Shown: in pieces, positions 3,878 to 64,000 of the stretch
Numbering within the stretch: the first letter of the stretch is position 1
How the letters are laid out: every line of letters starts with the position of its first letter
From: Meyerozyma guilliermondii
Lineage: Eukaryota
Length of the DNA: 64,000 nucleotides
Reading direction: 5' to 3'
Assembly (NCBI GenBank): GCA_051546255.1
Contig: CP128815.1
Coordinates: 372,001-436,000, forward strand
Program-made: the position numbers and the translations under genes
Notes under the pieces: generated by a model
What the model was told of the DNA's origin: nothing
Database searches by the model: none
What the model saw: only the letters and a program-made list of their open reading frames with translations

Positions 3878-4849
3878 TTACTCGTTGGAATCAAATACTA
3901 CGAAAGGTGCCCAATCGGGAGAAACCAATCTACTAATTCCCCGGACCTTGTGAAGTTGATTCAATTCCACGCCGTCGGTATCCTCGAGCTTAACAATCTT
4001 GAAATTTGACTCAATTCTAGTCGGCGTCACAGATTTGGGCAACACAACTGTGCCTCTCCATACGGCCCAAGAGATGAGAATTGATGCAGGTGTAACTCCA
4101 TACTTGCTGGCAATTTTGAGGACCACATCGTCCGTCAATAACGGAGAGTTGGTCGAACCCAAAGGACTGTAACTTTCAATCAAAATCTCATTTTGTCTGC
4201 AGAATTCAAGTAATCTTGGTTGGGGCAAGTAAGGGTGCATTTCTACTTGATTTGCAACCGGCTTGATTCTAGTCGATGGAGCCTCCAACAATGTCTTCAA
4301 GTTCTTTACGGTGAAGTTCGATACACCAATCGCCCGGGCCTGCTTGTTCTCTACCAAAGTTTGCATTGAGTCGTACGTCTTGACAAAATCCCAATTCTGC
4401 AAGACATCACGAGATCCATCTGCGAGTTTAGGAAATAGTGGATGGTTACCATTGGGATTTAAAGGCACAGGCCAATGCATCAAGTAGAGATCCACGTAGT
4501 CTGTTCCTAGTTTCTCCAATGATGCTGCAATACCTTCTGCGACTCTTGTGTGATCTGTACTCCACAACTTGGTGGTGATGAAAAGATCATTTCTTGATAT
4601 ACCTGACGCCTTTATAGCATCACCGATTGGCTTCTCATTCCCATAACATGCAGCGGTGTCAATGTGCCTATAACCGACTTTCAAAGCCGCAAGAACAGCA
4701 TTGTAAACTTGCTCTTCGCTCGACTGCCAGGTTCCCAAACCTAAAGCGGGAATCTCCTGTCCAGTATAGAATTTCAAAATAGCAGTTGAGCTGAAACATT
4801 AGTATGTGCTGTTAAATCATGTGTTGACGACTTACTTTTGCGCGACCAT
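3878..4849 (-). CDS. Aldo-keto reductase (GCY1/YPR1-like), two exons: 4849-4836 and 4790-3878
   Basis: IPALGLGTW, GYRHIDTA, LYLMHWP, AIGVSNF, NQVEMHP, LPKS motifs; splicing a 45-nt intron gives MVAQNSTAILKFYTG in frame. Confidence 0.9.
4791..4835 (-). other. 45-nt spliceosomal intron in the AKR gene
   Basis: GTAAGT donor, TACTAAT branch, CAG acceptor; restores an ATG-initiated frame. Confidence 0.82.
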
Positions 4850-8164: not shown

Positions 8165-11100
8165 TAACCTTAATGACGACAATAAACGGCTATTCAAGCA
8201 CATTCCTCATTTCAAAATTGAAAATCATAATAAAACCTGTACGAATTACATAACTAAGTTCTCGACAGTGGTAGTCCCAGAGAGGAAATGTCGTGATAAC
8301 TCAACGACATATTATATACGTGAACAATCAATTTCGGTTGAATATAATATAGCTTAAGACCTAGAACACGATCCAGTGCTTACATGGCTCGAACACCGAA
8401 CCACCGGCAAACCCGGCATATCACAATTTACTATACAATGGACATGACTGTACTACTCGGCACGTCAACCAAAAAGTATAAGAGAAGGAGTAGAAATCTT
8501 CTTTGATCTGAGAAGACTTACTATGGCGAAAGGGTATACTATAGCTCTGAATATTTACATAAAAGAAACTAGTACCACTTAAAATATATATCTGAACCAA
8601 GTCAGTGGTTGGTAAAATAAACTGCCCCCGAATATTCCATTCTTTGACAAAGAGGATGTGACATTGGGTAGAAACTCAGTGGCAATAAAAACTGATCTGG
8701 GCGAAAGAATAAAGCTTGGAGAGAAGCTATACTCACCAAACCGTAGCGTTAGCTCCAATCACACGCGTCAAAACATAACTTCAAGACAAAATCGTACTCG
8801 TCGACTGCCAGATTGTAACTGAAAATGAATCAACATATGTCATTTGCAACTTCGCTCTTAGTGTAAGTCAGTCTAAGTGAGCCCTCTATCCTTGGGTTCT
8901 CAGTCAGGATGAACTCATTATATTCTCTTTCATCCGTGAGATTGTCCACACATTACACACTATAATGTCGTTACCATAGATGCTTAGTGAACAACCAACC
9001 AATATTAGGTGCTGTACGCACCTATGGCTAACAGTGCTGAATCCATGTTTCTTTCATAATGCGAAAATGAGAGAACCTAACGCACGTACATGTTGCTTTA
9101 TTGACCAATTACCGGTAGCTATAATTGTATTATATAGGTTAGTAATAACTCTGCAAATCCTAGGAACTGCTTCACCTCAACCCTGACCTAAAGTTTCCCC
9201 CGAAGTTCAGTACATTATCGAAGACAGAAAAGACAGCCCCCACTTTGGACTCAAGCTTTTATGATATCCAGAAAGTTGTCTTACTAGTTCTTGTTGACAG
9301 GTGAATGACCAAAAAGACTTAACCAATTGAAGTCCTTGGTAAGTTTCAAGGAGGCAAACGCCCAAAGTGGGTAACCTCCCTTGAATTTCATTCTTCACTA
9401 GAAGTCGAGTTCTTTCATTATAGTTCAGGAGTCTCGGACCGTGGATGGATAACACACACGTGCTTGCTCGCCTACCTTAAAGCCATACATTACTAGGGCT
9501 AATGATAAGGGTATCTCTTACATACCCATTTGTTGAATCCATCTCGGTCCAATTGGGTATATTTCAGCTGGATCATCGTATATTAAATTCAACGGCAACT
9601 GCTTGCTCGAGAACTGTACAATGACAGTTTAACAACGGCCAGGCTCTAATGTGGTTGGCAAAATATAATGCGCAGGTAAGTTCCGAATTGCTTGTTTCTT
9701 TTTACGAAAGAAACACATCTTTCATGTGTGATGTTCATCGAAAAGTAGTCATCATTCTATAGTTTTAGTCAAATATGTAGTGACATACTTATTTTCAAAG
9801 GAGTTGTGCTTGATGAAAATTATTAGAAAATGACTTTATTTTACACCGGACAATCAATCTTGTATCATCATATGATTGGTTTGAATCGCAAACTTTACAT
9901 GAAAAAACGATCAAACAATGTATGACATGTTGACTGATTGAGGCAACTAAAAAGCCACTCTCTGGTCCTTCTCAGAACTTTGCATCAGTGATGTCTATTA
10001 TATATATCTTATAGAGAATGTCTACTATACCGTGCTTAGTAGTTTCTGCTAGTTTTAACCGGAGTAGAACCACTGTTAAGGGAATATATTCAATGTATTC
10101 TAGTCGCCTCTTTCAATTTTTTGGTACATATTCTATTGATCGCTTGCTTCAAATGGTTAACATACTGAGCGCTTATTTGTTGTGCCTCAAAGTTTTTTGC
10201 TTCTCTGGTCCTTTTCTTCGATAAAGGTGAATTTGAGCTCTAATAGAGCCCCTAACACAAAAGCTTTGTTTACATTACCAAGGACGTTATTCTTAGGTGA
10301 TGTCATGAATAGAAGGATGCAGATGAACTTTCTCTGCAGAGTTACTTCATCAGTTATATGACATACGTGATGCGTCTCATTTTCTTGTGTTGCAGAATGT
10401 TGCCGCCGACAAGGTATCGTAACGCTCTTCTGAGGTCCTAAACTCTAGCTTTTTCTACGTAACGTGTGTCATTTATATGGAAGCTCTGTTGACTGTTCAC
10501 TTTCACACGCATCCGACACTGCATACCCATTGGTTGAGTGGATAGCTACAGGTTTTACCTGTACAGGGTACAAATTATATAAGGTTGAGACGGAACAGAG
10601 GTAAACGGTCTTGAAGTTTTCGCGTACCTTCTTTTTTCTCTCTGATAATTCATACTTGCTGTTCCCAATTTGCATTGGTAATAAGACACTCTATTTCGAG
10701 AGCAAAATGTTTCATATTTCTCTGGTAGAAAACATGCAGCTGATTACGTTCCTTTCATAAAAGAGCATAAGATATCAGAAACAAACTTAAATGTTAACGT
10801 AAATTAGCTTCTACACCGTTCGTAGATATTTGAAATACTGCCCAAGAATCGATAGTTTTACTCAATTTACGGACTACAATCACTGCGAGCAGCACTAGAG
10901 AGCGATAGCGGTAAACTTTTGTAGTTCGTGACCAACAATTCGGTAGATCTGCGTTCTCATAATTGAAACGATTATCACACCGCTGAAAATCGTATGTATA
11001 AATTTTTGGCAGATTCTATTGAGATCGACTTGATTATGTATGATCGTTGAAGTCGGATTATGCATGATAACGCATTTAGATTCCGCTTTTGCAATGAAAA

Positions 11101-11433
11101 CGATAGCCATCAGTAAAAAACTGCAAGCGAACGACTTAATTTTCCAAGTGAATAACGGACCGGCTATTTGTAAACCTTCTTCTTCATACATTGAGATTTA
11201 GTTTCCAATTGACTCGAAAGCAGTAATGATGAAAATTTGGGTACTGCGATTATCGTATACAACCCTTATCTTATCGCATCTTTCCTCTAGAAAAGTTCCG
11301 TTCCTCTTTATAGAAGTTCCGCTAGTCTCACGGATTTCCCGCCAAGGTGATGCCGATTGTATTGCAAGCCCCTAACTCGGGCGACGTAAAAATATCACAC
11401 ATAAAAGACCTTTAGTCCCGACGTACGACCAAT

Positions 11434-13083
11434 ATGTTTGGACTAGGTGAAGACACCAAGCTTATAGAAGAGGTACCAGGTACCATCAACTTGGTTGATA
11501 TGCAAGGTGTGCTTGAAGTCAAGGGTACCAATGGTAAAATCATTTTGCACCCTCAACCAAGCTCCGACTTAAATGACCCACTTCGCTGGCTGCCTATCAA
11601 AAAGGAGTATCAAGTATGTTTATTATCCTTTTGGGGCTTTATGCAATCGGTATCAACCGTCTGGAGTGGACCGATATGGTCGCTATGGGTTGAAGAATTT
11701 GGTATCACATACAGCCAGCTCAACACTCTGAGTGGTTTATGTTTTATTTTTATTGCAGTGGGATGCGTGGTTCTCCAGCCATGTGCCTTGAAACTTGGAA
11801 AGCGTTTCGTATATTTGATGTGCACTTTATTGCAAATAGTGGGAAACGTTGTCTACGCAAATACCGCGGGAGTAAGCCAGTTGTACGCGGCGGCGTCGAT
11901 AGTTGGATTTGCGTCCGCTCCGATGTTTTCGTTGATCGAAATTTCATGCACAGACATTTTTTTTCAACACCAACGGGCGTTCAAGATTTCCTATGTCGTC
12001 TTTTCTCTTTATGGTGGAGTTGCTCTTGGCCCATTGGCAACTGGGTACGTGACCGATGGCGTTGGGTGGAAATGGTGTCCATACATCATGATCATTATCT
12101 TCAGCATAATGTTTATTGTCCAGCTCTTTACGTTGGAAGATTCAACATACAGAAGATTGGAGACACCAGAAGATCTTCAAAGTAACATTTTGGAGCAAAT
12201 TAGAAGTCACATGAGCCAAAAGATTGAAGCTTTAAAGGTTGGCTCTCCAAAGATCGATAAGTCCGAGGTGATAATCAATGTCGATGATGATGATTCCCTT
12301 GACTCTACAATACCGAAACTTTCGTACTGGCGCCGCATGAGAATCTTCTCGACTGAGCATGCAGATCCACGAAAGCTACGATGGATTGTGTTCAAGCCTT
12401 TCTTGTTGTGCTCTTTTCCGATTGTTGTGTGGTGTGGAGTTTTACAAGCAGTTCAACAGATGTGGCTTGCGTTGCTTCTGAGTACACAATCAGAGTTTTA
12501 CTCAAGTAAACCTTACAATTTTTCCACCTCCAAGGTAGGCTTAACAAATTTGTCCACTTTAGTCGGAATTATTTTGGGAATTTTCTATGGTGGTTGGTGT
12601 GTTGATAAGATGACCATATACCTAGCAAGGAAGAACAAGGGTATCATGGAGCCTGAGTTTCGCTTATGGAGTATGCTTGTGCCAGTTGCTGTGAATCTTG
12701 CTGGTTTACTCGCTTATGGTTTGGGAATTCTGAACCAGCTCAGTTGGGCTCTACCAGTTATATTTGGACAAGGATGTCTCGGGTTCTCAATGGCATCTAT
12801 CACGGGTATTGCGTACACGTATTGCACAGATAGTTACCCCAATCTCGTCAACGAAGGAATCGTGTTCATATCATTTGTCAACAATGGTTTGGCGACAATC
12901 TTTACCTTTTTCATCAGCAATTGGATGGAACGAGACGGTTTAGTTTTAATGGCCTGGATGATGTTTTTGATCGCTCTTGGAGTTACTGGGAGCTTTCTAA
13001 TCTTCATTTTGTTGGGCAAAACGTTTAGAAGAAAAGGCAAGAACCTTTATTATAAGATAAGTGAGTTGGGTGAGACCCACTAA
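11434..13083 (+). CDS. Major facilitator superfamily transporter, HOL1-like
   Basis: VPGT...LHPQPSSD.NDPL.W N-terminus, about 12 hydrophobic segments, G.MEPEFRL motif. Confidence 0.85.
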   Translation: MFGLGEDTKLIEEVPGTINLVDMQGVLEVKGTNGKIILHPQPSSDLNDPLRWLPIKKEYQVCLLSFWGFMQSVSTVWSGPIWSLWVEEFGITYSQLNTLSGLCFIFIAVGCVVLQPCALKLGKRFVYLMCTLLQIVGNVVYANTAGVSQLYAAASIVGFASAPMFSLIEISCTDIFFQHQRAFKISYVVFSLYGGVALGPLATGYVTDGVGWKWCPYIMIIIFSIMFIVQLFTLEDSTYRRLETPEDLQSNILEQIRSHMSQKIEALKVGSPKIDKSEVIINVDDDDSLDSTIPKLSYWRRMRIFSTEHADPRKLRWIVFKPFLLCSFPIVVWCGVLQAVQQMWLALLLSTQSEFYSSKPYNFSTSKVGLTNLSTLVGIILGIFYGGWCVDKMTIYLARKNKGIMEPEFRLWSMLVPVAVNLAGLLAYGLGILNQLSWALPVIFGQGCLGFSMASITGIAYTYCTDSYPNLVNEGIVFISFVNNGLATIFTFFISNWMERDGLVLMAWMMFLIALGVTGSFLIFILLGKTFRRKGKNLYYKISELGETH

Positions 13084-13569
13084 CAGCTCCAATACAAGTC
13101 CAACACGTTTGTACAAAAAATCCAAGAAAGAGAGATAGCCTCCATTCACCGTTTCTTTTGGAGGAAGTCATTGTATTCTTAGTAGCATGTCATTAGTGGA
13201 AAAAGATGGGTCGCACTAATAAAGACCCAAATTGATATGTGAGGAATGATATGAGTATTGTCCTTTAGTTTGAGAGAGAATGTCTCCCTGTAACAATATA
13301 GGGATAGGACGTGGAAATTGTATCTCTAATTGTAATGTGGCAAGTGTCCAATAGAGACTGATTCGCAGCCCGGTCAAAATGCTCTGCTGCAAGGTATCAT
13401 AGACAGAACACTATCAGCGATTGAACCTTGAAGAACTACTCAGCTCTATCTCGTTGCATCATAAGCTTTACACCTCCTTAAGCATAATGCTATGAAATTA
13501 AATCAAGGCGCCTTATCGGAACCTAGTCTCTTCGCGTGTGGCTTTATCTCTATACAGTACCGTACTGTA

Positions 13570-13896
13570 CAGTATTTTCCACAAAAAATACGCATCCGGA
13601 AGCTTTTAAATTCGCGGGCCGAAGCTTCAAAGTCGCAGAGTCGCCGTTGTAAATTCGTCGTTCTCATCTCATAAAGTCGCTCGCAAGGATTTCAAGTTCG
13701 CCATCAATACGATCATTAAAGTCACCTCAACTTGAATTAAATTCGCTACCAACCAGTGAACAATTACGCTCAACATAGAATTCAAATTCGCTCTCTGAAT
13801 TCTGAAATTCGTTCACGACAAGAGCCAAATTCGTTGTTTGTTTGCAGTACATACGAAATGATTATGAAGTTCTACGAATCTTGCTAAAAAGTACTG
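13570..13896 (+). mobile_element. 327-bp MITE-like element (Tc1/mariner/pogo-type ends), copy 1
   Basis: TA|CAGTATTTTCC...AAAAAGTACTG|TA; imperfect TIRs starting CAGTA; near-identical inverted copy at 18044-18370; no transposase coding capacity. Confidence 0.8.
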
Positions 13897-14582
13897 TATA
13901 GTGTAGAGATTTAAAAATAGTTGTGCAGTCCTCTGTGTGCAGTACACTGGCCCTGTTATGGTTTCGGTAATTTTCAAAGCCAATTTCTAATTCATAGTAC
14001 ATACACTAAACTAACGATTCAGCCTCTGATAACTTCTCTGAGGCGAGAACAAGCACAATTTTACCAAAATTTTGGAGGTTTTCCATTCAAAATGAGAATT
14101 TTGATCAACCATAAAACCACTTTAGTCGCAAGAAATCCACAATAGAATCTCACTGGTGGAAAGACAAAGTGAGACAAAGACGTGGAGTTTAATGGAGTAA
14201 CCTTGGAAAGTCAATTATGGTGAACCAAGAATTTGCAGCCAAAAATTGGGCTTCAAGAAAAACTCCAGGTAATGCTAAACTAGCAGGAAGAGATTCATCA
14301 GTCGTTCTATATCTCTTCATTGAGCTAATTCTAGAATCTTAGTCGGAGTTTATACATTGATCTTTGTACAGGAGTCTTCTGAGTCATTTTGGCTTCATCA
14401 GAAAGCTAAGAATGGTGCACTTTAGTTAGACACATTATATAGATAATAGCATTAATTTCTATTTCATTGTTACCATTACTTGTCGCATGTGATGAATAAT
14501 GCCAATAAGTACTTTTTCTAACTTCTTTGTAAAGTGTATACTACCCCTTTCTATTCTACGTCATAAATCTTGCAGTATTAAA

Positions 14583-14617
14583 CGCCGTTATATTTTCGCC
14601 GTTATTAACGCCGTTAT
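14583..14617 (+). promoter_or_regulatory. Triple CGCCGTTAT direct repeat upstream of the OYE gene
   Basis: Copies at 14583, 14597, 14609; a partial GCCGTTAT at 14799. Confidence 0.45.
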
Positions 14618-14950
14618 AGGGCCTACGGCGCTTACCTGCACAGAGTAATTTTGACAGCTCCGACTCCGAAACTAAACGGTCGAAAAATCCAAATTTTCAT
14701 TCTGCTAATTAATCTGACTACTTCGACTCTCTTCCGTCATTCTCTAATCAATTTTGTACCGTTCTTTTCTTTCTTCGCTAACTCCGTTGCAGCTTTGTGC
14801 CGTTATCTTAACCGACATTACCTCATCGCGCGTCGGCTTATAAATGTCAATGTGAGCCGCCGCAACCGTCGCACCATTTAAGGGCGCGACTACAACGGTA
14901 TATCCACCAAGGTATTTTATTTTGTACCCATCCCATTATGTAACGCCCTC

Positions 14951-16171
14951 ATGCTGGCAATCAAAGTTAGACCCCTCGGGGACACAAAGGTGTTTGAGCC
15001 TATACAGGTGGGAAAGAATACTCTTTCCAATAGACTTTTCATGTGCCCAACTACAAGACTCAAGGCTTTAGAAGACGGTACTCCATCGAATTTGGCATTG
15101 CAACTTTATGACGAAAGAAGCAAATTTCCCGGCTCGCTCGTGACAACTGAAGGAACTTTCACTTATGATGAGGGTCAAGTATGGGAAAGAACTCCAGGAA
15201 TTTATACTGAAAGACATATTGAAGCATGGAAAAAAATTGTCGATAAAGTTCATCAGAACAAATCTTTCATTTCACTCCAGTTGTTCAATTCGGGCCGTGT
15301 AGCCGACCCAACCATTGCAGACAACAAGAATCATCCATTTGTTGCTCCATCGGCTATTTACCATGATGAGGAAACGAAAAAAGCTGCCATTGCTGCTGGC
15401 AATCCTTTGCGAGAAATGACCTTGGATGAAATCCACGATATTATTAACAACAAGTACCCCAAAGCTGCCCATAATGCTCTCAGAGCCGGGTTCGACTATG
15501 TCGAAGTCCATGCTGCAAACGGCTACCTTCCCAACCAATTTATTGACGTTGCCAGTAATCAGCGCACTGACCAATACGGTGGTTCCATTGAAAATAGAGC
15601 CAGATTTGTGTTGGAAATCATTGACAAATTGACCGCTGAGATTGGTGCCGACAAGATTGGACTTAGAATTTCTCCATGGTTGACATTCCAGGGCATGCTG
15701 ACCAAAGGTGCAGAGATCGACCCATTGACCACTTACAGTTACATTTTACACGAATTGGAAAAGAGAGCTCAGAAGGGAAACAGAATAGCCTATGTGTCCA
15801 TTATCGAGCCTAGAGTCGATGGAAACTCTACCGTCAAGAAAGAAAACCAAGTTGGTGATAACTCGTTTGTCTACGATATTTGGAAAGGAACAGTTTTGAG
15901 AGCGGGTGGATACACTTATGATGCCCCAGAATTCAAACGAGTTGAAACCGATCTTGCTAACGATAGAACAGTCATTGGTTTCTGTCGTTACTATATCTCC
16001 AATCCTGATTTGGTTGAAAGGCTTAAAAATGGCTGGGATCTCCAACCATACGACCGGCCCTCTTTTTATAGAAGCAACGATTACCGCTACAATACGTACT
16101 CGTTCCATGGAGAGCCCCCTAGAGATGAAGAAGCCGGTAAGAATAGAAAGCCTGAGCCAATTGCTGCTTAA
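14951..16171 (+). CDS. Old Yellow Enzyme NADPH dehydrogenase (EBP1/OYE2-like)
   Basis: PTTR, GFDYVEVHAANGYL (His/Asn/Tyr active site), NQRTDQYGGSIENRARF, ISNPDLVERL motifs. Confidence 0.95.
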   Translation: MLAIKVRPLGDTKVFEPIQVGKNTLSNRLFMCPTTRLKALEDGTPSNLALQLYDERSKFPGSLVTTEGTFTYDEGQVWERTPGIYTERHIEAWKKIVDKVHQNKSFISLQLFNSGRVADPTIADNKNHPFVAPSAIYHDEETKKAAIAAGNPLREMTLDEIHDIINNKYPKAAHNALRAGFDYVEVHAANGYLPNQFIDVASNQRTDQYGGSIENRARFVLEIIDKLTAEIGADKIGLRISPWLTFQGMLTKGAEIDPLTTYSYILHELEKRAQKGNRIAYVSIIEPRVDGNSTVKKENQVGDNSFVYDIWKGTVLRAGGYTYDAPEFKRVETDLANDRTVIGFCRYYISNPDLVERLKNGWDLQPYDRPSFYRSNDYRYNTYSFHGEPPRDEEAGKNRKPEPIAA

Positions 16172-16651
16172 TAGAGATAGATATGATAAATAAATAAGTG
16201 AAGGTACTGATGGTTTAATGTTAGATGGAATAACTTTTTCGTATTTTGAAAAACTAACTTTAGATATTAGATCAGGCAACTATCAACCAAATAGTAATGT
16301 GTGTACGGCTATAAGTCTCTATACGGATGTAGTGAAAGAGTAGATATTTCTTGACTTGGTCAATGGCTGCGAAATATTTAGGAGATGTTGCAACCACTTT
16401 AAAATCTTCTTATCTTGAGAATCTAAACCATGGAGTACTTCTCACAAATGACTTTTGAAATTGGTCTTTTATGAAACTATATAGTGATACGATCCAATAT
16501 AGGCATACTTTCGTTAGTTCCTACTCGCGTACAGAGCTAATTATCGAACTAATTCGTTTACTACTCTGGATTCAATTAAAAATATTCATTAATTTCTTAG
16601 TTACTGGTCCACTTGATTTCTAAATTGTTTTGAAATATTTACAATTTTGTC

Positions 16652-16873
16652 TCAATCTTTTGGTTTACTGTCTTCATCTTTATACTCATTCGGATCATAT
16701 CCATAATATTTCATTATAACGTCAAAGGATTCACCTTGCTTCCCGCAAAATGTTCGATATGTTTCATCATCTACGGCCAACTTTACCGAGTATGCATATA
16801 CACACCCCAATATACCATGAAACGGTGTCATTAGCAAGTAAGGTACAATCGATATAAGGTCCCAGTTTGTCAT
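16652..16873 (-). CDS. 73-aa putative membrane microprotein (paralog of 17216-17410)
   Basis: ATG at 16873 (MTNWDL...); hydrophobic N-half; ungapped similarity to neighbouring small ORF. Confidence 0.6.
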   Translation of the reverse strand: MTNWDLISIVPYLLMTPFHGILGCVYAYSVKLAVDDETYRTFCGKQGESFDVIMKYYGYDPNEYKDEDSKPKD

Positions 16874-17215
16874 TGATGAGAATTTACCGATGCTTTGCTG
16901 AGGAAATACAAAAAGAAAATACTGAAGGAATAATTTGCGGGAATTAACGTGATTATCTGTCAAAAAATCACATACAGGCTCGACTATTAATAGAATTTTG
17001 CCACTGTGCTAGATGAAATCGGCTCAATTGTATTAGGGTATAGCGTATTATTCTACATTTGTATCAATATTCCACAACTTGATGAGTATTCTTTCATGAA
17101 TGCTATTGCGTTTTCACTAAAGTGTATAATAGATTAAGCGAATTGTCAAAATTTACAGCACCGTTCTTGCAGAGCTACGCAAGTTCTTCTTTCACACGAA
17201 GCTTCTTATTATCAT

Positions 17216-17410
17216 TTACTGCTTACCTCCATCACCCTTATCGCCCAAAAAGTATCTCATAAGTACTCTTAAAGATTCATTTCGTATCTCGCAATGTTTT
17301 TGATAAGTTTCTTGGTCTACGCCCAACCTTATTGTGAAGCCGTATATAAACGAACTAACAAGGTAAGGGGGAGTCAATACTACCAAAGGGATGATAGTTA
17401 GGAAATTCAT
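17216..17410 (-). CDS. 64-aa putative membrane microprotein (paralog of 16652-16873)
   Basis: ATG at 17410 (MNFLTIIP...); shares I.P....TP, Y.....L.VD.ETY...C....ES..V.M.Y pattern with neighbour. Confidence 0.6.
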   Translation of the reverse strand: MNFLTIIPLVVLTPPYLVSSFIYGFTIRLGVDQETYQKHCEIRNESLRVLMRYFLGDKGDGGKQ

Positions 17411-18043
17411 GGCTTCATGCACTAAAATTTCTGCTCGTAAGGTAAATGCGTACTATTTATGCAGTGACTTTGAAATCGGTATGCATAATGCGTCTGCATC
17501 TAAATTTAACCACCCATTGTGCAGACGCTAAAAGTCAAAGTGTGTATTTAGGCCGCAAAAGTTATTGGTGAATTTAATATACGATCAGACGACTGTAAGG
17601 CGATAGTTATCTAATTATAGGTCTAAAATTTTCTATTCGATAGTTATTTAATTACTCATTCAGGTGCCACATGATATGCATGAATTCTCTCCTGTCAAAG
17701 TGCCGTCACGCCGCACTTGATGCATGAAGAATGCATGCTTGCATTACGCATAATGGAAAAGTATTACCATTTGATCGTACGACCCGACTAGAGCGCTATT
17801 TTTGTAACCTTAGTGGGCATAAATTCAACGTATTAAGATATCCCGTCGAATTCCAGAACGACATATGAAATGGTGCTTCGTATCAGAAGACAGTGAACAC
17901 GTGATCCCGGCTTGTGTCTATAAAAGTCTTTAATTACTATAATAAAGTGCGCAGTACGAACCTCTTTTTTTCAGTTGTGTGAACCTGCGAAACTGTTTTT
18001 AATTGTATTTTCACACCGGCAGACTCAACCAGAAGTCAGCATA

Positions 18044-18370
18044 CTGTACTTTTTAGCAAGATTCGTAGAACTTCATAATCATTTCGTATGTACTGCAAAC
18101 AAACAACGAATTTGGCTCTTGTCGTGAACGAATTTCAGAATTCAGAGAGCGAATTTGAATTCTATGTTGAGCGTAATTGTTCACTGGTTGGTAGCGAATT
18201 TAATTCAAGTTGAGGTGACTTTAATGATCGTATTGATGGCGAACTTGAAATCCTTGCGAGCGACTTTATGAGATGAGAACGACGAATTTACAACGGCGAC
18301 TCTGCGACTTTGAAGCTTCGGCCCGCGAATTTAAAAGCTTCCGGATGCGGATTTTTTGTGGAAAATACTG
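18044..18370 (-). mobile_element. 327-bp MITE-like element, copy 2 (inverted relative to copy 1)
   Basis: Reverse complement of 13570-13896 with two mismatches found by eye; TA at 18042-18043 and 18371-18372. Confidence 0.8.
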
Positions 18371-18833
18371 TATTTAGGTCGTTTAACGACTTAGGACTAT
18401 ATTTACGATACAACTTACACCGTACAGCAGCTTGTAGTCCTGCATGCATTTGGCTGCTATAAACATTTTTCTAGGAATGCATAGTCGTGAGTGCAATGAA
18501 AAGCTGAAAGTGTCGTTAGCGCCTTATCTAGAATGCGCTAAGTAGCTCAAGTTCGAGGAGAGAAGTCGAAAATGCACCAGGCGACATAGCATAAAGTCCT
18601 AAAGTCCACGTGGGTCGGCCGCGTGATTATGTAATCATAGTTCTAATTGCGAAAGCCATCACCCACGTTCGCTGTGTCTTACATTCTTATCTTAATATTT
18701 GCAACGAACGCAAAACATGGAAGGTACAGATATTATTGTTTCTAAGATCTAAAACTGGAAATATATTTTATTGTGAAACATCTCTCAAGAGAAGGGCCAG
18801 AAGACTGTCTGTGCTAAGCGGACAAATATTTCA

Positions 18834-20162
18834 ATGAGCATATTAGAAACTGTGTCTCCATTCATGTCTCCTCATGATCGTAGCGTTCAGCTAAGTGGCC
18901 CAGGTGGCCCACAGATACATCTGAAGGTGGATCATAAGGGACCACATTTTGAGAGATCAAGTGATGAGTACAAGAAAGCCGATGTAAATCGATCGTATAA
19001 GAAGTTTGAAAGGCAACAAGCCTATACCGACCTCACTATTGACCCATTCATTTCCCGATATATCAGGTCTCCCCATCTAAACACACCATTCAATTATCAC
19101 AACGTTTTCTTCGAATCGGTCAAGGATGATCTAAACAGTCAGCTGTTTGATTTATACCAAAAATACCTCATTCAAAAGGATAATTACCATATCACCAAAC
19201 CAGCAAAAACATCGACCCACGATGAAATCAACCTTTCGCATGAACTCAATTTCACCAGGAAGAGGATCGATAGCGAAACGGATTCAACTACACCTCAGCG
19301 TACATCATTAGACCACCCTATAACTTCAAAGCTGGAAATCACATATCTCCCAAGAAATTTCATGGATTGCGATATAAATAACTTGATAGACCTAATTTCC
19401 AGGTTGTTGCGGTCGCTTATTGCGTTGAATGATAAGAATGTCCACCCGTCGATCTCAAATCCTCAGAAGGGTTCTAAAGCCACAAATCAAATACTCACCA
19501 GATATCACTCGCGAACGCCTCCTGCCATCTCAGCCCATACTTACTTGTCTCGTCTCACACGCTTTAATAATTTGAACCCCGGGACGTTATTGACAACAAT
19601 ATACTATATAGATTTGTTGTCTCATCATTATCAGCCGTACTTCACATTGAACTCGTGGACTGTGCATAGATTTTTGCTAGTTGCTACGATGCTATCGCAA
19701 AAGCTGCTTGAAGATTTTTTCTACACAAACGAGCATTATGCCAAAGTGGGCGGTGTGGCTGTCAGCGAATTGAACTGCTTGGAGCTAGACTTTCTTGAAA
19801 GAGTCGATTGGCGCTGCGTGCCAGGGAAGGTTGGCGAGAACAATTTGTTCTCCATAAAATACGCCAAAACTACCCTCGACTTGTATTATGCTCAGTTGGT
19901 CTCGCTCATGGGACAACCATCCAACGGTTCATCAGTTACGACATACAAGATCAAGCATTCTGATGAAGATGGAGTACTGGAAGATGAAAGCAATGATGAC
20001 ATATTTGACGACGAAGAAGAAGACGAAGATGCGATGGAAGATGAGGTATTTGAAACTGCTGGACAAGGAACTAGAGCGATGTATGACCATTTGGGCTATA
20101 GTGTGGATGGATCTTCATCGCCTCATTTGAAGCGTCGTTATTCTAAAAATTTTGCTTCATAG
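18834..20162 (+). CDS. PHO80: Pho85 cyclin Pho80
   Basis: LP..F..C....L..LISR.L, LTRYHS..PP.IS, YYIDLL, FTLNS.T.HRFLL, N.HYAKVGG cyclin box most like Pho80. Confidence 0.85.
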   Translation: MSILETVSPFMSPHDRSVQLSGPGGPQIHLKVDHKGPHFERSSDEYKKADVNRSYKKFERQQAYTDLTIDPFISRYIRSPHLNTPFNYHNVFFESVKDDLNSQLFDLYQKYLIQKDNYHITKPAKTSTHDEINLSHELNFTRKRIDSETDSTTPQRTSLDHPITSKLEITYLPRNFMDCDINNLIDLISRLLRSLIALNDKNVHPSISNPQKGSKATNQILTRYHSRTPPAISAHTYLSRLTRFNNLNPGTLLTTIYYIDLLSHHYQPYFTLNSWTVHRFLLVATMLSQKLLEDFFYTNEHYAKVGGVAVSELNCLELDFLERVDWRCVPGKVGENNLFSIKYAKTTLDLYYAQLVSLMGQPSNGSSVTTYKIKHSDEDGVLEDESNDDIFDDEEEDEDAMEDEVFETAGQGTRAMYDHLGYSVDGSSSPHLKRRYSKNFAS

Positions 20163-43182: not shown

Positions 43183-44787
43183 CTACTCAAACTTGATCTT
43201 CTTCGCCGTCTTGGTCATGTCGACGTCTTTGAAGAATGCACCGTAAGCCAGATGGCTTTTTTTCTTGGTGTGACCGCCAAACTTGAGCAACTCATCGGGC
43301 ACTGGCTGACCTGCTCCTCGCAAAACATTCATCAATGCTCCACTCAAGTGTTTTTCGTGCTCGGTGAAAAGGGTGTGTGCAATACCTGTCTGGCCCGCGC
43401 GCCCAGTACGGCCGATACGATGCACATAGTCCTCCACGGTAAGTGGGAAAGTCAAATTTATCACCACTTTGACATTGGGAATATCCAAGCCTCTGGCAGC
43501 AACGTCGGTGGCCAAGAGAAGATTCGAGTCGCCACGCTTGAACGAATCAAGTGCAGAAGTTCTTTGCTGCTGCAGCAAGTCGCCGTGGATGGCTGCAACA
43601 TTGAACCCGGAACGACGCAACATGGCTTCCACTCTGGTGGCTTCTTTTTTGTACAAGGCAAAAACCAAGATTTTTTGGTCCGAGCCATATTGCCTCAACA
43701 ACTGGAGCAATCGGCGCTCTTTATCACGAGGATCCATCACCTCCACTGTCTGGGTAATCCGCTTATTTGCAGCCAATTCGTCCCGGTTTCCAATCGACAC
43801 CTTGACGGCTTTGTTCATGAATGTTGCCGCGAGCTCACGAACTTCTTTGGGCCAGGTGGCTGTGAACATGAGTGTCTGTCTTTGCTTGTTGGTGCATCCA
43901 ATGATGTTTTTGATATCTTCTTCAAAACCCTTTTCCAACATTCTGTCGGCTTCATCAAGTACAAGATAGTCAATTGTGCTCAAATCCACCGCCCCGTCGT
44001 TGAGAAGATCCACCAATCTTCCGGGTGTTGCAACTACAACACTGGCAGTCTTCACCGCCTTGATCTGCTGGTCTTTGGGCACTCCTCCATAGATAGCCAC
44101 ACAAGTGAGTCCACAGTTCTTGGTGAGCATGGTCAAGTTGTCGTAAATTTGAAGCGCAAGTTCACGGGTAGGAGAGATACATAAAACCCGAAGGCCCTTC
44201 TTGTTGTCGGTGATGATGTTGTTGATGGCAGGCACTCCAAATGCAAAGGTTTTTCCCGACCCGGTCTCGGCAACTCCGACTACATCATCACCATTGAGAA
44301 GATACGGCCAAGAAGCAGATTGAATAGGAGTTGGTTTGGGAAACTTCGTCACTATAGGTGCTATCTTCAGCTGGAGCTGGACATGGTCGAACGAAAGAAT
44401 TGGTCTAAACCCAAGTTTGTGAGGATCTTCAACGGTAACCTCGTTGGTCTGGAGAAACTCATCGATTTCGCTCTGAGGAAGCGCAGTCAATTCCGCGGCC
44501 TGGGTATATCCTGAAGAAGAGGACGACACGGTAGAAACGGTAGAGTCAGTCTCTTCAGTCTCTTCAGTCTTTTCCTTCTTCGCCTTCTTCTCCTTCTTCT
44601 CCTTCTTCTCGTTCTTCTCCTTCTTTTCTTTCTTTTCTTTCTTTTCTTTCTTTTCTTTCTTTTCTTTCTTTTCTTTCTTTTCTTTCTTCTCCTTCTTTTC
44701 CTTCTTCTCCTTTCCCTTCACCTCATTGTCGTGCTTGGGCTTCTTCACCTCCACATCGCCAGATTCGTGCTTTCTTTTGGAACCCAT
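43183..44787 (-). CDS. DBP3: DEAD-box rRNA helicase Dbp3
   Basis: KKE repeats, [23 protein letters not shown]-terminal [22 protein letters not shown] at 44787. Confidence 0.95.
44571..44712 (-). repeat. Coding 9-nt tandem repeat (KKE)n in DBP3
   Basis: AAGAAAGAA/AAGAAGGAG units in tandem. Confidence 0.9.
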
Positions 44788-62894: not shown

Positions 62895-64000
62895 ATGCTT
62901 CGACTACGCATTCTGACCGGTGTGTGCCAATACAGTACTGCAGCCCAGACACTGTACCACCCCGAAATATACAAGGATATCATCACATCGGGATATCTGG
63001 CGGTGAAAAATCTTTTACCTGAACAATGTTCTAACCAGCAATTTGTCACTGATAACGACGACGATTTGGAGGCGCTCGCACGGCGTTTTGACGGTCCGGT
63101 GGAGTTTACGTTTGGCTACGGGTCCGGGGTGTTTGACCAGGCGGGGTACACGAAGCGAGCAAAGCCGCAAATAGACATGATCCATGTAGTAGATGATGCT
63201 TGCAATTTCCACACCACCAATTTGCGACAGTTCGGCAACCATTATTCCGGTCTCAAGTATTTGGGCGGAGCCCCCACCATCCTGGCAGTCCAGCAGTGGG
63301 GTGGCGGAGTTTATTTTAATCCATTTGTGGCCATGGCTAGTGGCGGCAAAACCCATCTTCTCAAGTATGGTGTCACCACATTAGAGCTGTGTCTTCGAGA
63401 TTTGTGTGAGTGGAACTCGCTTTATGTTGCTGGCAGATTACAGAAACCGGTCAAATTTTTGCGGCAAGAAAACAAGTATATTGAACTTGTTAATCAGTAC
63501 AACTTGAAGAGTGCACTCACATTAGCATTATTATTGGCACCAGCCAAATTTGATGAAGTCAAGCTATACGAAACCATAACCCTGGTATCGTATATGGGAG
63601 ATCCCAGAATGGCAATTGGGGGCGAGAATCCCAAAAAAATACAAAATATTGTGAACAAACAATTTACAAAATTCCGCCATTTATATGCTCCGATCATGGA
63701 GCACATGGTGGATGGTCACACATTGGTGAGAACCGGGGGTGAGGTTGGTCGGTTTGAGAAAAAGGAGTTCACGCCGGAATACGTTAGCAGCCTTGTGCAG
63801 CAATTGCCAATTGGGTTCAGACGCACCCTCGGCGTCACTTCACCTTCTGGTGCGATGGAATTTGCATTGGATAAGAAACGCCGCAGCCGACTAATTTTGG
63901 CAGTGCGCCAAACAGTTAGGATACCTGCAGCCATTCAAACTCTCAAAGGTGTACTTACTGCGGGCATTACCAAGTCGGTCAAATATGCATGGGAGAAAAA
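62895..64000 (+). CDS. TAM41: Mitochondrial CDP-diacylglycerol synthase Tam41 (runs off window end; absent from ORF track)
   Basis: ATG 62895; FGYGSGVFDQAGY, PQIDMI, HYSGLKYLG, GVYFNPF, LKYGV, LYVAGRLQKPV, SYMGDPRM. Confidence 0.92.
   Translation, partial: MLRLRILTGVCQYSTAAQTLYHPEIYKDIITSGYLAVKNLLPEQCSNQQFVTDNDDDLEALARRFDGPVEFTFGYGSGVFDQAGYTKRAKPQIDMIHVVDDACNFHTTNLRQFGNHYSGLKYLGGAPTILAVQQWGGGVYFNPFVAMASGGKTHLLKYGVTTLELCLRDLCEWNSLYVAGRLQKPVKFLRQENKYIELVNQYNLKSALTLALLLAPAKFDEVKLYETITLVSYMGDPRMAIGGENPKKIQNIVNKQFTKFRHLYAPIMEHMVDGHTLVRTGGEVGRFEKKEFTPEYVSSLVQQLPIGFRRTLGVTSPSGAMEFALDKKRRSRLILAVRQTVRIPAAIQTLKGVLTAGITKSVKYAWEK

What the first reader, a model, noticed from the sequence alone, without database searches (positions are those of the whole stretch)
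16652..17410. Tandem pair of homologous orphan microproteins (73 aa and 64 aa)
Seen: the two small minus-strand ORFs align without gaps over 56 residues with 18 identities by my count, plus many conservative changes (LISIVP/FLTIIP, VYAYSVKLAVDDETY/IYGFTIRLGVDQETY, conserved Cys, ESFDVIMKYY/ESLRVLMRYF). Protein-level conservation with intact frames argues both are real genes. They have a hydrophobic N-half and charged tail, are below usual annotation cut-offs, and lie within the MITE-bounded cassette. I recognise no family.
Basis: partly seen in the sequence, partly recalled or inferred. Interest (0 to 1): 0.75.

Follow-up and report, generated by a model that had tools for sequence, protein, structure and literature searches.

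The report
Paired small membrane-protein genes in yeast
Two neighbouring mini-genes of a Meyerozyma yeast are true duplicates belonging to a small, fast-evolving and so far undescribed protein family found in a few related yeasts, most likely tiny membrane-anchored proteins whose job is still unknown.

Summary
Two minus-strand ORFs, A (16655-16873, 73 aa) and B (17219-17410, 64 aa), align without gaps: 17/54 identical, 36/54 similar, E 2e-14.

They are not strict orphans. A has 73-85% identical relatives in other Meyerozyma assemblies. A profile search of 1.84 billion representative proteins found 6 proteins at E<=0.001. One is a 69-aa hypothetical protein of Yamadazyma tenuis (named). The relatives' natural forms are 64-75 aa, with five invariant residues.

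There is no Pfam family, no solved-structure match by sequence or fold, and no paper.

AlphaFold gives both a two-helix hairpin. The first helix is hydrophobic enough to span a membrane.

The family evolves quickly. A is 82-85% identical across relatives whose neighbouring OYE gene is 97-98% identical.

My reading: both are real genes of a lineage-restricted, tandemly duplicating family of N-terminally anchored microproteins. Function is unknown. Expression could not be tested. Interest is modest.

The parts
16652..16873 (-). Microprotein gene A: 73 codons (16655-16873) plus TGA stop (16652-16654)
   Evidence: Translation. Orthologues of 71-75 aa with the same start and end. No CTG codons.
17216..17410 (-). 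Microprotein gene B: 64 codons (17219-17410) plus TAA stop (17216-17218); paralogue of A
   Evidence: Translation. BLASTP to A E 2e-14. Three intact variants, 91-94% identical, seen on 12 contigs in total.
16784..16855 (-). A, residues 7-30: hydrophobic helix (putative membrane anchor) holding the invariant prolines P11 and P17
   Evidence: Best 19-residue Kyte-Doolittle window 1.61 at residues 7-25. AlphaFold helix 10-33. Invariant columns.
16745..16798 (-). A, residues 26-43: the most conserved block of the family (YAYSVKLAVDDETYRTFC)
   Evidence: Mean column diversity 0.057 here against 0.28 and 0.27 in the flanks. 58 of 100000 column shuffles give a 19-column window as low.
17330..17401 (-). 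B, residues 4-27: hydrophobic helix (putative membrane anchor)
   Evidence: Best 19-residue Kyte-Doolittle window 1.84 at residues 4-22. AlphaFold helix 3-30.
13568..13899 (+). Context: left copy of the 332-nt repeat (MITE-like)
   Evidence: Six AAATTCG motifs.
18041..18372 (-). Context: right copy of the 332-nt repeat, inverted, 99% complementary to the left copy
14951..16171 (+). Context: old-yellow-enzyme-type NADPH dehydrogenase gene, convergent with gene A; orthologue of PGUG_05760
   Evidence: Pfam Oxidored_FMN E 8e-90. Cluster membership and 97% identity to PGUG_05760.

Best explanation
A and B are two real, paralogous protein-coding genes. They belong to a small, undescribed gene family restricted, as far as seen, to a few CTG-clade (Debaryomycetaceae-type) yeasts: Meyerozyma, Yamadazyma tenuis and at least two unnamed yeasts.

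Each protein is a two-helix hairpin. An N-terminal hydrophobic helix of about 25 residues carries two invariant prolines. An amphipathic helix carrying the invariant Tyr and Glu-Ser packs back on it. A short acidic or Lys-rich disordered tail follows.

Inferred, not shown: the first helix is an N-terminal membrane anchor. The few N-terminal residues face outwards or into the lumen, and helix 2 plus the tail face the cytosol, because K/R residues sit on the C-terminal flank. The protein then acts as a small accessory or regulatory subunit of a larger membrane protein or complex.

The family grows by local tandem duplication: A/B here, and an independent pair in another yeast. It evolves several times faster than its neighbouring housekeeping-type genes. 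Its amino-terminal halves are reshuffled between copies or alleles.
For: Homology of A and B: (E 2e-14).

Family and conservation:
- One search found 5 relatives of A at 73-85% identity.
- One search found 6 proteins at E<=0.001 among 1.84 billion representatives.
- One search found 11 proteins at E<=0.1 among 1596 candidates, including Yamadazyma tenuis CANTEDRAFT_115858 (69 aa).
- Start, length (64-75 aa) and five residues (P11, P17, Y39, E48, S49) are kept in all 18 aligned rows.
- Members are annotated as stand-alone genes in two genomes.

Constraint:
- The core block has five-fold lower diversity than its flanks; 58 of 100000 shuffles reach it.
- B keeps 7 of 12 columns that are >=90% conserved in the 15 non-B rows, against 13 of 52 other columns (one-sided Fisher p 0.03).
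- The paralogue dN/dS is about 0.5 (dN 0.58, dS 1.18).
- The in-frame codon model beats both off-frame models for A and B.

Fold: AlphaFold mean pLDDT 78.6 for A (helices 10-33 and 36-56) and 71.9 for B (helices 3-30 and 33-54).

Hydrophobicity: best 19-residue windows of 1.52-1.88 in all 5 members tested.

Topology: read, there are 0-1 K/R before the helix and 3-4 in the 15 residues after it.

Duplication habit: P0027 and P0031 are 70% identical and sister in the tree. Both were seen on 2 contigs with the same longest length, 3204.

Fast evolution: A is 85% identical to P0003 and 82-85% to JA9 P0005 (82% by BLASTP; 85% over aligned columns). The neighbouring OYE protein is 98% (397/406) and 97% (372/382) identical to the matching relatives.
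Against: - There is no expression evidence.
- The coding score is only middling: 0.045 and 0.046 per codon, ranks 5 and 4 of 29 intergenic small ORFs. Real-gene pieces average 0.129 (sd 0.07, 5th percentile 0.018).
- Third codon positions of A and B are nearly as alike (29/56) as first (31/56) and second (33/56). The pairwise dN/dS of about 0.5 therefore shows only mild constraint, and it rests on 56 saturated codons.
- A first test for a long invariant run among the 18 A-type sequences was not significant: 81696 of 100000 shuffles reached it. The window width was chosen after seeing the data.
- With 7 less redundant rows, the test on B weakens to p 0.075.
- B has no relative outside its own 90% cluster in the word-indexed search.
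- Hydrophobicity is borderline in some members (1.52-1.61). Membrane insertion, topology and any partner are inference only.
- No orthologous DNA could be fetched, so no codon-level test across species was possible.
Confidence: 0.6

Rival explanations
1. Only A is a working gene. B is a decaying or never-expressed duplicate whose frame happens still to be open.
For: B has no relatives beyond its own 90% cluster. Its branch is long, 0.91 changes per column. It is 30-33% identical to the window-type A sequences and up to 39% to the A'-type (P0006). A three-codon upstream ORF overlaps its start codon (read). Evidence for constraint on B is modest: p 0.03, and 0.075 with fewer rows.
Against: B keeps all five family-invariant residues and the same length and architecture. 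Three variants, 91-94% identical, seen on 12 contigs in total, are all intact and differ mostly by conservative changes. The A clade has an equally long stem, 0.83, so B is not uniquely fast. With dS about 1.2 since the duplication, an unconstrained 64-codon frame would be expected to have collected stops or indels. That last point is inference.
Confidence: 0.15
2. The proteins are soluble helical hairpins that bury the hydrophobic helix by forming homo- or hetero-oligomeric bundles, not membrane proteins.
For: AlphaFold packs helix 2 onto helix 1. Hydrophobicity of helix 1 is borderline in some members (1.52-1.61). That helix contains His, Thr, Gly, Tyr and two prolines.
Against: The hydrophobic stretch is 24-28 residues long, has no charged residue inside it, and scores 1.7-1.9 in 3 of the 5 members tested. 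Helix 2 alone cannot cover it. No fold match points to a soluble bundle family.
Confidence: 0.15
3. The hydrophobic N-half is a cleaved signal peptide, and the product is a secreted peptide of about 45 residues.
For: Small residues stand near the end of the hydrophobic stretch (V-Y-A in A, I-Y-G in B; read), which could serve as a cleavage site.
Against: The N-half holds invariant residues (P11, P17, near-invariant Y26), unlike typical signal peptides. There is no positive n-region in A, B or P0027, though other members carry one K/R there. The would-be mature part has a single Cys and an acidic tail. The general rules for signal peptides used here are recalled, not tested with a predictor.
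Confidence: 0.07
4. The two ORFs are exons or fragments of a larger gene, or remnants of a transposon protein belonging to the repeat-bounded segment.
For: They lie between two copies of a 332-nt inverted repeat. The frame of A stays open for 30 codons upstream of its ATG.
Against: There is no Pfam hit at E<=10 for A or B. The length-unrestricted profile search found no larger protein containing the module, apart from an upstream-extended call (P0029) and an odd repeat protein (P0028). Relatives in three or more species start and stop at the same places. Eukaryotic annotations list them as single small genes. B ends in a stop 342 nt before A's ATG.
Confidence: 0.03

Closest known systems
Hypothetical proteins JA9_004943 and JA9_004878 (Meyerozyma sp. 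JA9) and CANTEDRAFT_115858 (Yamadazyma tenuis ATCC 10573)
   Same: They belong to the same family by sequence: 82-83% and 46-52% identity to A, profile E 1e-19 to 1e-33. Size (69-71 aa), the two prolines, the Tyr and the Glu-Ser are the same.
   Different: None has a described function, a Pfam family or a paper. The JA9 copies lie on a different contig (214876 bases) from the JA9 orthologue of the neighbouring OYE gene (388638 bases).
Small single-pass regulatory membrane proteins, such as the yeast Pmp1/Pmp2 proteolipids of the plasma-membrane H+-ATPase, or animal sarcolipin and phospholamban (recalled from general knowledge; no sequence compared)
   Same: This concerns how the protein may work only. 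Both are very small, have one hydrophobic helix and a short charged cytosolic part, and occur as duplicated paralogues.
   Different: No sequence or fold relationship was found. No partner is known here. The anchor here is N-terminal and is followed by a second conserved helix.
Fast-evolving, repeat-flanked duplicated gene families of fungi such as the wtf genes of fission yeast (recalled)
   Same: Shared habits: tandem or multi-copy, rapid divergence, mosaic copies that suggest gene conversion, and neighbouring repeats.
   Different: wtf proteins are much larger multi-pass proteins, as recalled. Nothing here shows drive, toxicity or two products.
Tc1/mariner-type miniature inverted-repeat elements (for the flanking 332-nt repeat only)
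   Same: The repeat is small and non-coding. Its two copies are 99% alike. Both copies are flanked by TA, and the ends begin CAGTA.
   Different: The terminal inverted repeat is short and imperfect, about 8 of 11 by my reading. Only two copies could be seen because no genome was available. No source transposase was identified.

Membership tests
Any Pfam-A family | Score above the curated threshold of a Pfam model | tested here: not met
   There were 0 families at E<=10 for A and B. Among 9 family members, four unrelated families were each hit by 1 member at E 0.039-0.21, which is chance level.
The unnamed Meyerozyma/Yamadazyma small-protein family (JA9_004943, CANTEDRAFT_115858) | Significant sequence similarity over the whole length, 64-75 aa, with conserved P..P, Y and ES positions | tested here: met
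   A: E 1e-21 to 1e-37 to Meyerozyma members. B: profile E 1.4e-26. Y. tenuis: E 3.5e-19. Invariant columns.
Single-pass (signal-anchor) membrane protein | An uncharged hydrophobic stretch of 19 or more residues, with mean Kyte-Doolittle hydropathy of about 1.6 or more | tested here: inconclusive
   Best windows were 1.61 (A), 1.84 (B), 1.88, 1.52 and 1.71 in the 5 members tested. Two sit at or below the usual cut-off. No dedicated topology predictor was available.
Single-pass (signal-anchor) membrane protein | Experimental membrane association and topology | not testable with these tools
   This needs fractionation and protease protection of a tagged protein.
Oleosin-like proline-knot hairpin (lipid-droplet proteins; motif P-X5-S-P-X3-P, recalled) | The three-proline knot in the middle of a hydrophobic stretch of about 70 residues | tested here: not met
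   The family has only two prolines, spaced P-X4-[ST]-P, in a hydrophobic stretch of about 25 residues. The defining motif is recalled from memory.
Tc1/mariner-type MITE (flanking repeat) | TA target-site duplication and terminal inverted repeats | tested here: inconclusive
   TA stands on both sides of both copies, and the ends begin CAGTA. The inverted termini match only about 8 of 11 positions (read).
Tc1/mariner-type MITE (flanking repeat) | Many dispersed copies in the genome | not testable with these tools
   No genome is held for this window. Only 2 copies lie in the 64-kb window.

The most novel reading that the evidence does not exclude
The family is a rapidly diversifying, recombining locus whose variable part is the membrane helix. 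Strains carry sharply different N-terminal halves (about 40% identical) joined to identical C-terminal halves. Copies duplicate in tandem and sit between near-identical mobile repeats. That pattern would fit a conflict-type system, for example a small killer/protector or self/non-self recognition pair in a sexual haploid yeast, rather than a housekeeping subunit.
Probability: 0.05. Interest if true: 0.75.

Novelty: new member of a known kind. Interest (0 to 1): 0.33.

Why it matters
Small ORFs below annotation cut-offs are usually dismissed. These two have cross-genus conservation that marks them as genes. No match carried a PGUG (ATCC 6260) name, although the neighbouring OYE gene does. That suggests the reference annotation lacks them, but I could not check it directly.

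The family is a clean, tractable case of a lineage-restricted microprotein family. It has a predicted fold, a recurrent habit of tandem duplication, and an unusual mosaic pattern: variable membrane helix, constant tail.

If the proteins prove to be membrane regulators, they would add an unknown component to the membrane biology of CTG-clade yeasts, some of which are used industrially and some of which are opportunistic pathogens. On present evidence this is a modest annotation and evolution finding, not a new mechanism.

Tried and rejected
- Whole-genome search of the window's own assembly: none is held.
Expression is therefore untested.
- Orthologous DNA from JGI metagenome contigs. The first alignment was too diverse. 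A closer alignment matched 89 stretches by pattern, but none was confirmed by tblastn. No codon-level dN/dS across species was possible.
- Pfam: nothing.
- PDB sequences: 2 hits at E 1.5, interleukin-33, taken as chance.
- Foldseek against PDB: 0 matches at E<=10.
- VIA-align against 48161 chains: best Z 5.5, generic helix pairs. This is below the level the tool itself calls common for helical models.
- ESM Atlas: best feature scores 0.81 and 0.77, below the lead threshold. Structure rows were unrelated.
- Rfam over 13000-19000: 0 matches. tRNA scan: 0 genes.
- DNA similarity between the flanks of A and B: best E 0.52. The duplication is no longer visible outside the coding parts.
- Complex prediction of A with B: no verdict (score 0.25, mark 0.34, controls not run). 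It counts neither for nor against binding.
- Invariant-run test on 18 A-type sequences: not significant.
- Weak tblastn hit of A at 63403-63576 (E 0.007; 0.16 to 1.6 with three of the other four queries). It lies out of frame inside another ORF and is taken as chance.
- Literature. Searches for the three locus tags, Meyerozyma guilliermondii plus small ORFs and Meyerozyma plus miniature inverted-repeat found 0 papers. A broader search listed only general microprotein and orphan-gene papers, seen as listing only, none on this yeast.
- Earlier findings of this scan: nothing.

Full report
**What is there**

On the minus strand, between a convergent old-yellow-enzyme gene (14951-16171, +) and a divergent Pho80-type cyclin gene (18834-20162, +), lie two small ORFs.
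- ORF A runs 16655-16873 and gives 73 aa from its ATG.
- ORF B runs 17219-17410 and gives 64 aa.
- The mechanical ORF list shows them with upstream non-ATG extensions of 103 and 68 aa.
- Neither contains a CTG codon, so the alternative yeast code does not alter them.

**The pair is homologous**

- BLASTP of A against B gives 17/54 identities, 36/54 positives, no gaps, E 2e-14.
- In a tblastn of A against all six frames of the window, B is the only hit besides A itself at E<1e-3, at 1.4e-10.
- Outside the coding parts, the flanks of A and B no longer resemble each other; the best blastn E is 0.52.

**Which organism**

- The neighbouring OYE protein falls in one 90% cluster with PGUG_05760 of Meyerozyma guilliermondii ATCC 6260 and is 97% identical to it.
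- The first named relative of A is from Meyerozyma sp. JA9.
- The window is therefore from M. guilliermondii or a very close relative, a CTG-clade yeast.
- The surrounding genes are ordinary chromosomal genes: Rrp6-like exonuclease, alanyl-tRNA synthetase, HSF, a copper-fist factor, an MFS transporter, a PP1-type phosphatase and FAD synthase.

**Not orphans: a small family**

- A has five relatives of 71-82 aa at 73-85% identity.
- B found only its own cluster in the word-indexed search.
- A profile of A, B and those five relatives was read against 1.84 billion representative proteins. It found 6 proteins at E<=0.001:
  - the A and B clusters;
  - P0026 (69 aa, E 3.5e-19);
  - P0027 (64 aa, 7e-11);
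  - P0029 (111 aa, 5e-4);
  - an odd 204-aa repeat protein, P0028 (8.5e-5).
- A second profile search found 11 proteins at E<=0.1 among 1596 candidates.
  - It named P0026 as the hypothetical protein CANTEDRAFT_115858 of Yamadazyma tenuis.
  - It added P0030 (74 aa) and P0031 (107 aa).
- Cluster listings show that the natural forms of P0029 and P0031 are 70 and 64 aa, starting at an internal Met.
- Meyerozyma sp. JA9 has two annotated copies, JA9_004943 and JA9_004878, on one 214876-base contig.
- In an 18-row alignment, start, length and five residues (P11, P17, Y39, E48, S49 in A numbering) are invariant. Y26 and L32 are nearly so.
- The family matches no Pfam model and no PDB sequence.
- It appears in no paper that I could find by locus tag.

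**Are they genes?**

Evidence for:
- The frame, the start and the stop are kept across at least two genera and two further unnamed yeasts.
- Two eukaryotic annotations call members as stand-alone genes.
- Among 18 A-type sequences, the block YAYSVKLAVDDETYRTFC has a mean column diversity of 0.057, against 0.28 and 0.27 on either side. Only 58 of 100000 column shuffles give a 19-column window as low.
- B keeps 7 of 12 columns that are at least 90% conserved in the 15 non-B rows, but matches the majority in only 13 of 52 other columns (p 0.03).
- The in-frame codon model fits A and B better than the shifted-frame models.

Evidence that is weak or against:
- The codon score (0.045 and 0.046 per codon) is only fifth and fourth of 29 intergenic small ORFs. 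It is well below the mean of real-gene pieces (0.129, sd 0.07), though above their 5th percentile (0.018).
- The paralogue dN/dS is about 0.5, on 56 saturated codons. Third positions (29/56 identical) are barely more diverged than first (31/56) and second (33/56).
- A simple invariant-run test failed: 81696 of 100000 shuffles reached it. The width used was chosen after seeing the data.
- With seven less redundant rows, the test on B gives p 0.075.
- Expression could not be examined.
- No orthologous DNA could be obtained.

On balance I put A at roughly 0.9 and B at roughly 0.7-0.75 for being functional coding genes.

**Evolution**

- A maximum-likelihood tree puts the Y. tenuis protein on a short branch, in an unresolved three-way split with the A clade and the B clade.
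  - Each clade has 99/99 support and a long stem (0.83 and 0.91).
  - The duplication therefore happened near or before the Meyerozyma stem, and both copies then diverged fast.
- P0027 and P0031 are 70% identical and are sisters (84/85). Both were seen on 2 contigs whose longest is 3204 bases. That suggests an independent tandem pair in another yeast. It is an inference from equal contig lengths, because the contig itself could not be read.
- The family is fast-evolving.
  - A is 85% identical to P0003 and 82-85% to JA9 P0005 (82% by BLASTP; 85% over aligned columns).
  - The OYE neighbour is 98% (397/406) and 97% (372/382) identical to the matching relatives P0040 and P0038. Some of those differences are only Leu/Ser at CTG codons.
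- One pattern is unexplained.
  - A second N-terminal type (A'; P0006, P0017, P0019, and P0030/P0094) differs from A at about 60% of the first 27 positions.
  - Yet P0017 is identical to the window's A over the last 48 residues.
  - The same C-terminal variants occur with both N-terminal types.
  - That is what recombination or gene conversion between alleles or paralogues would produce.
- Equal 'longest contig' lengths link OYE with A or A' (403546, 392662, 171662, 2087459) and link P0094 with P0003 (403546). This hints that these types sit at or near this locus in different strains. It is not proof.
- In JA9, the OYE orthologue is on a 388638-base contig and not on the microproteins' contig. 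The adjacency to OYE is therefore not universal.

**Structure and likely mechanism**

- AlphaFold with the family alignment gives A a mean pLDDT of 78.6, with helices 10-33 and 36-56.
- It gives B 71.9, with helices 3-30 and 33-54.
- Both are two-helix hairpins with a disordered tail.
- The first helix is uncharged and hydrophobic, with best 19-residue Kyte-Doolittle means of 1.52-1.88 in five members.
- K/R residues are 0-1 before it and 3-4 in the 15 residues after it (read).
- By the positive-inside rule (established knowledge), this predicts an N-out/C-in signal anchor.
- Fold searches found nothing specific: Foldseek gave 0 hits, and VIA-align gave a best Z of 5.5 with generic helix pairs. 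The Atlas gave no lead.

My committed reading, at about 0.6, is an N-terminally anchored single-pass microprotein. Its conserved juxtamembrane helix and Glu-Ser face bind or tune a larger membrane protein. The steps 'membrane', 'topology' and 'partner' are all inferred.

Rivals:
- B as a relic (0.15).
- A soluble oligomeric hairpin (0.15).
- A secreted peptide with a cleaved signal (0.07).
- Fragments of a larger or transposon gene (0.03). The length-unrestricted profile search and the conserved ends speak against this one.

**The 'cassette'**

- A 332-nt repeat stands at 13568-13899 and, inverted, at 18041-18372. It is 99% complementary and is the only long repeat pair in the window.
- Both copies are flanked by TA and begin CAGTA.
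- Each holds six same-strand AAATTCG motifs. There are 25 in the window against 13.6 expected, and 0 of 100 shuffles reach 25.
- The repeat is MITE-like. With no genome to search, neither its copy number nor any mobility of the enclosed 4.1 kb (OYE plus A plus B) can be judged.
- No paper links Meyerozyma with MITEs in the searched library.

**Comparison and novelty**

- The pair belongs to an undescribed, lineage-restricted small-protein family whose named members are only 'hypothetical protein'.
- In kind, it resembles the many small single-pass membrane microproteins that act as accessory subunits. That analogy is recalled, not tested.
- It is a new member of a known kind, with one interesting twist: the mosaic of variable anchor and constant tail.
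- The boldest reading not excluded is a conflict-type or recognition locus. I give it about 0.05.

Noticed in passing
window 13568-13899 (+) and 18041-18372 (-): A 332-nt repeat in inverted orientation, 99% alike. Both copies are flanked by TA, and the ends begin CAGTA. Each copy carries six same-strand AAATTCG motifs. It is MITE-like. Genome-wide copy number is unknown.
   Followed up: partly
relatives P0006, P0017, P0019, P0030, P0094 versus window 16655-16873: Mosaic relatives. A second, very different N-terminal (membrane-helix) type is joined to a C-terminal 48 residues identical to the window's protein A. The same C-terminal variants occur with both N-terminal types, which suggests recombination or gene conversion.
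   Followed up: partly
protein P0028 (204 aa, unnamed source): An ORF with four tandem stretches resembling the core and helix 2 of protein A, up to 13/19 identical. It may be a tandem array of degenerate gene copies read through as one frame. The source could not be looked up.
   Followed up: partly
proteins P0027 and P0031 (unnamed yeast): A second pair of family members, 70% identical to each other. Both were seen on 2 contigs whose longest is 3204 bases. This is probably an independent tandem duplication.
   Followed up: partly
window 17407-17418 (-): A three-codon upstream ORF (ATG AAG CCA TGA), out of frame, whose stop overlaps the ATG of gene B (read). It could damp translation of B if the transcript starts upstream of it.
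   Followed up: no
window 16874-16963 (-): The reading frame of A stays open for 30 codons upstream of its ATG. A relative's read-through call (P0024) shows a similar open upstream stretch. This is probably just close DNA similarity, but it was not examined.
   Followed up: no
window 44532-44748: Seventeen overlapping copies of a 9-nt-period repeat (TCTTCTCCT-like) inside the long minus-strand ORF 43183-44787. It is presumably a Lys/Glu-rich repeat in the protein.
   Followed up: no
window 3878-4480 (-): A 200-aa ORF matching only positions 109-280 of the 291-position aldo/keto reductase model. The gene may have an intron or a frameshift, or be truncated at its 5' end.
   Followed up: no
window 8165-11433 and 13084-14950: Unusually long stretches for a yeast without any ATG-ORF of 150 aa or more. 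Several small ORFs in 10018-11198 score as high as A and B in the codon test.
   Followed up: no
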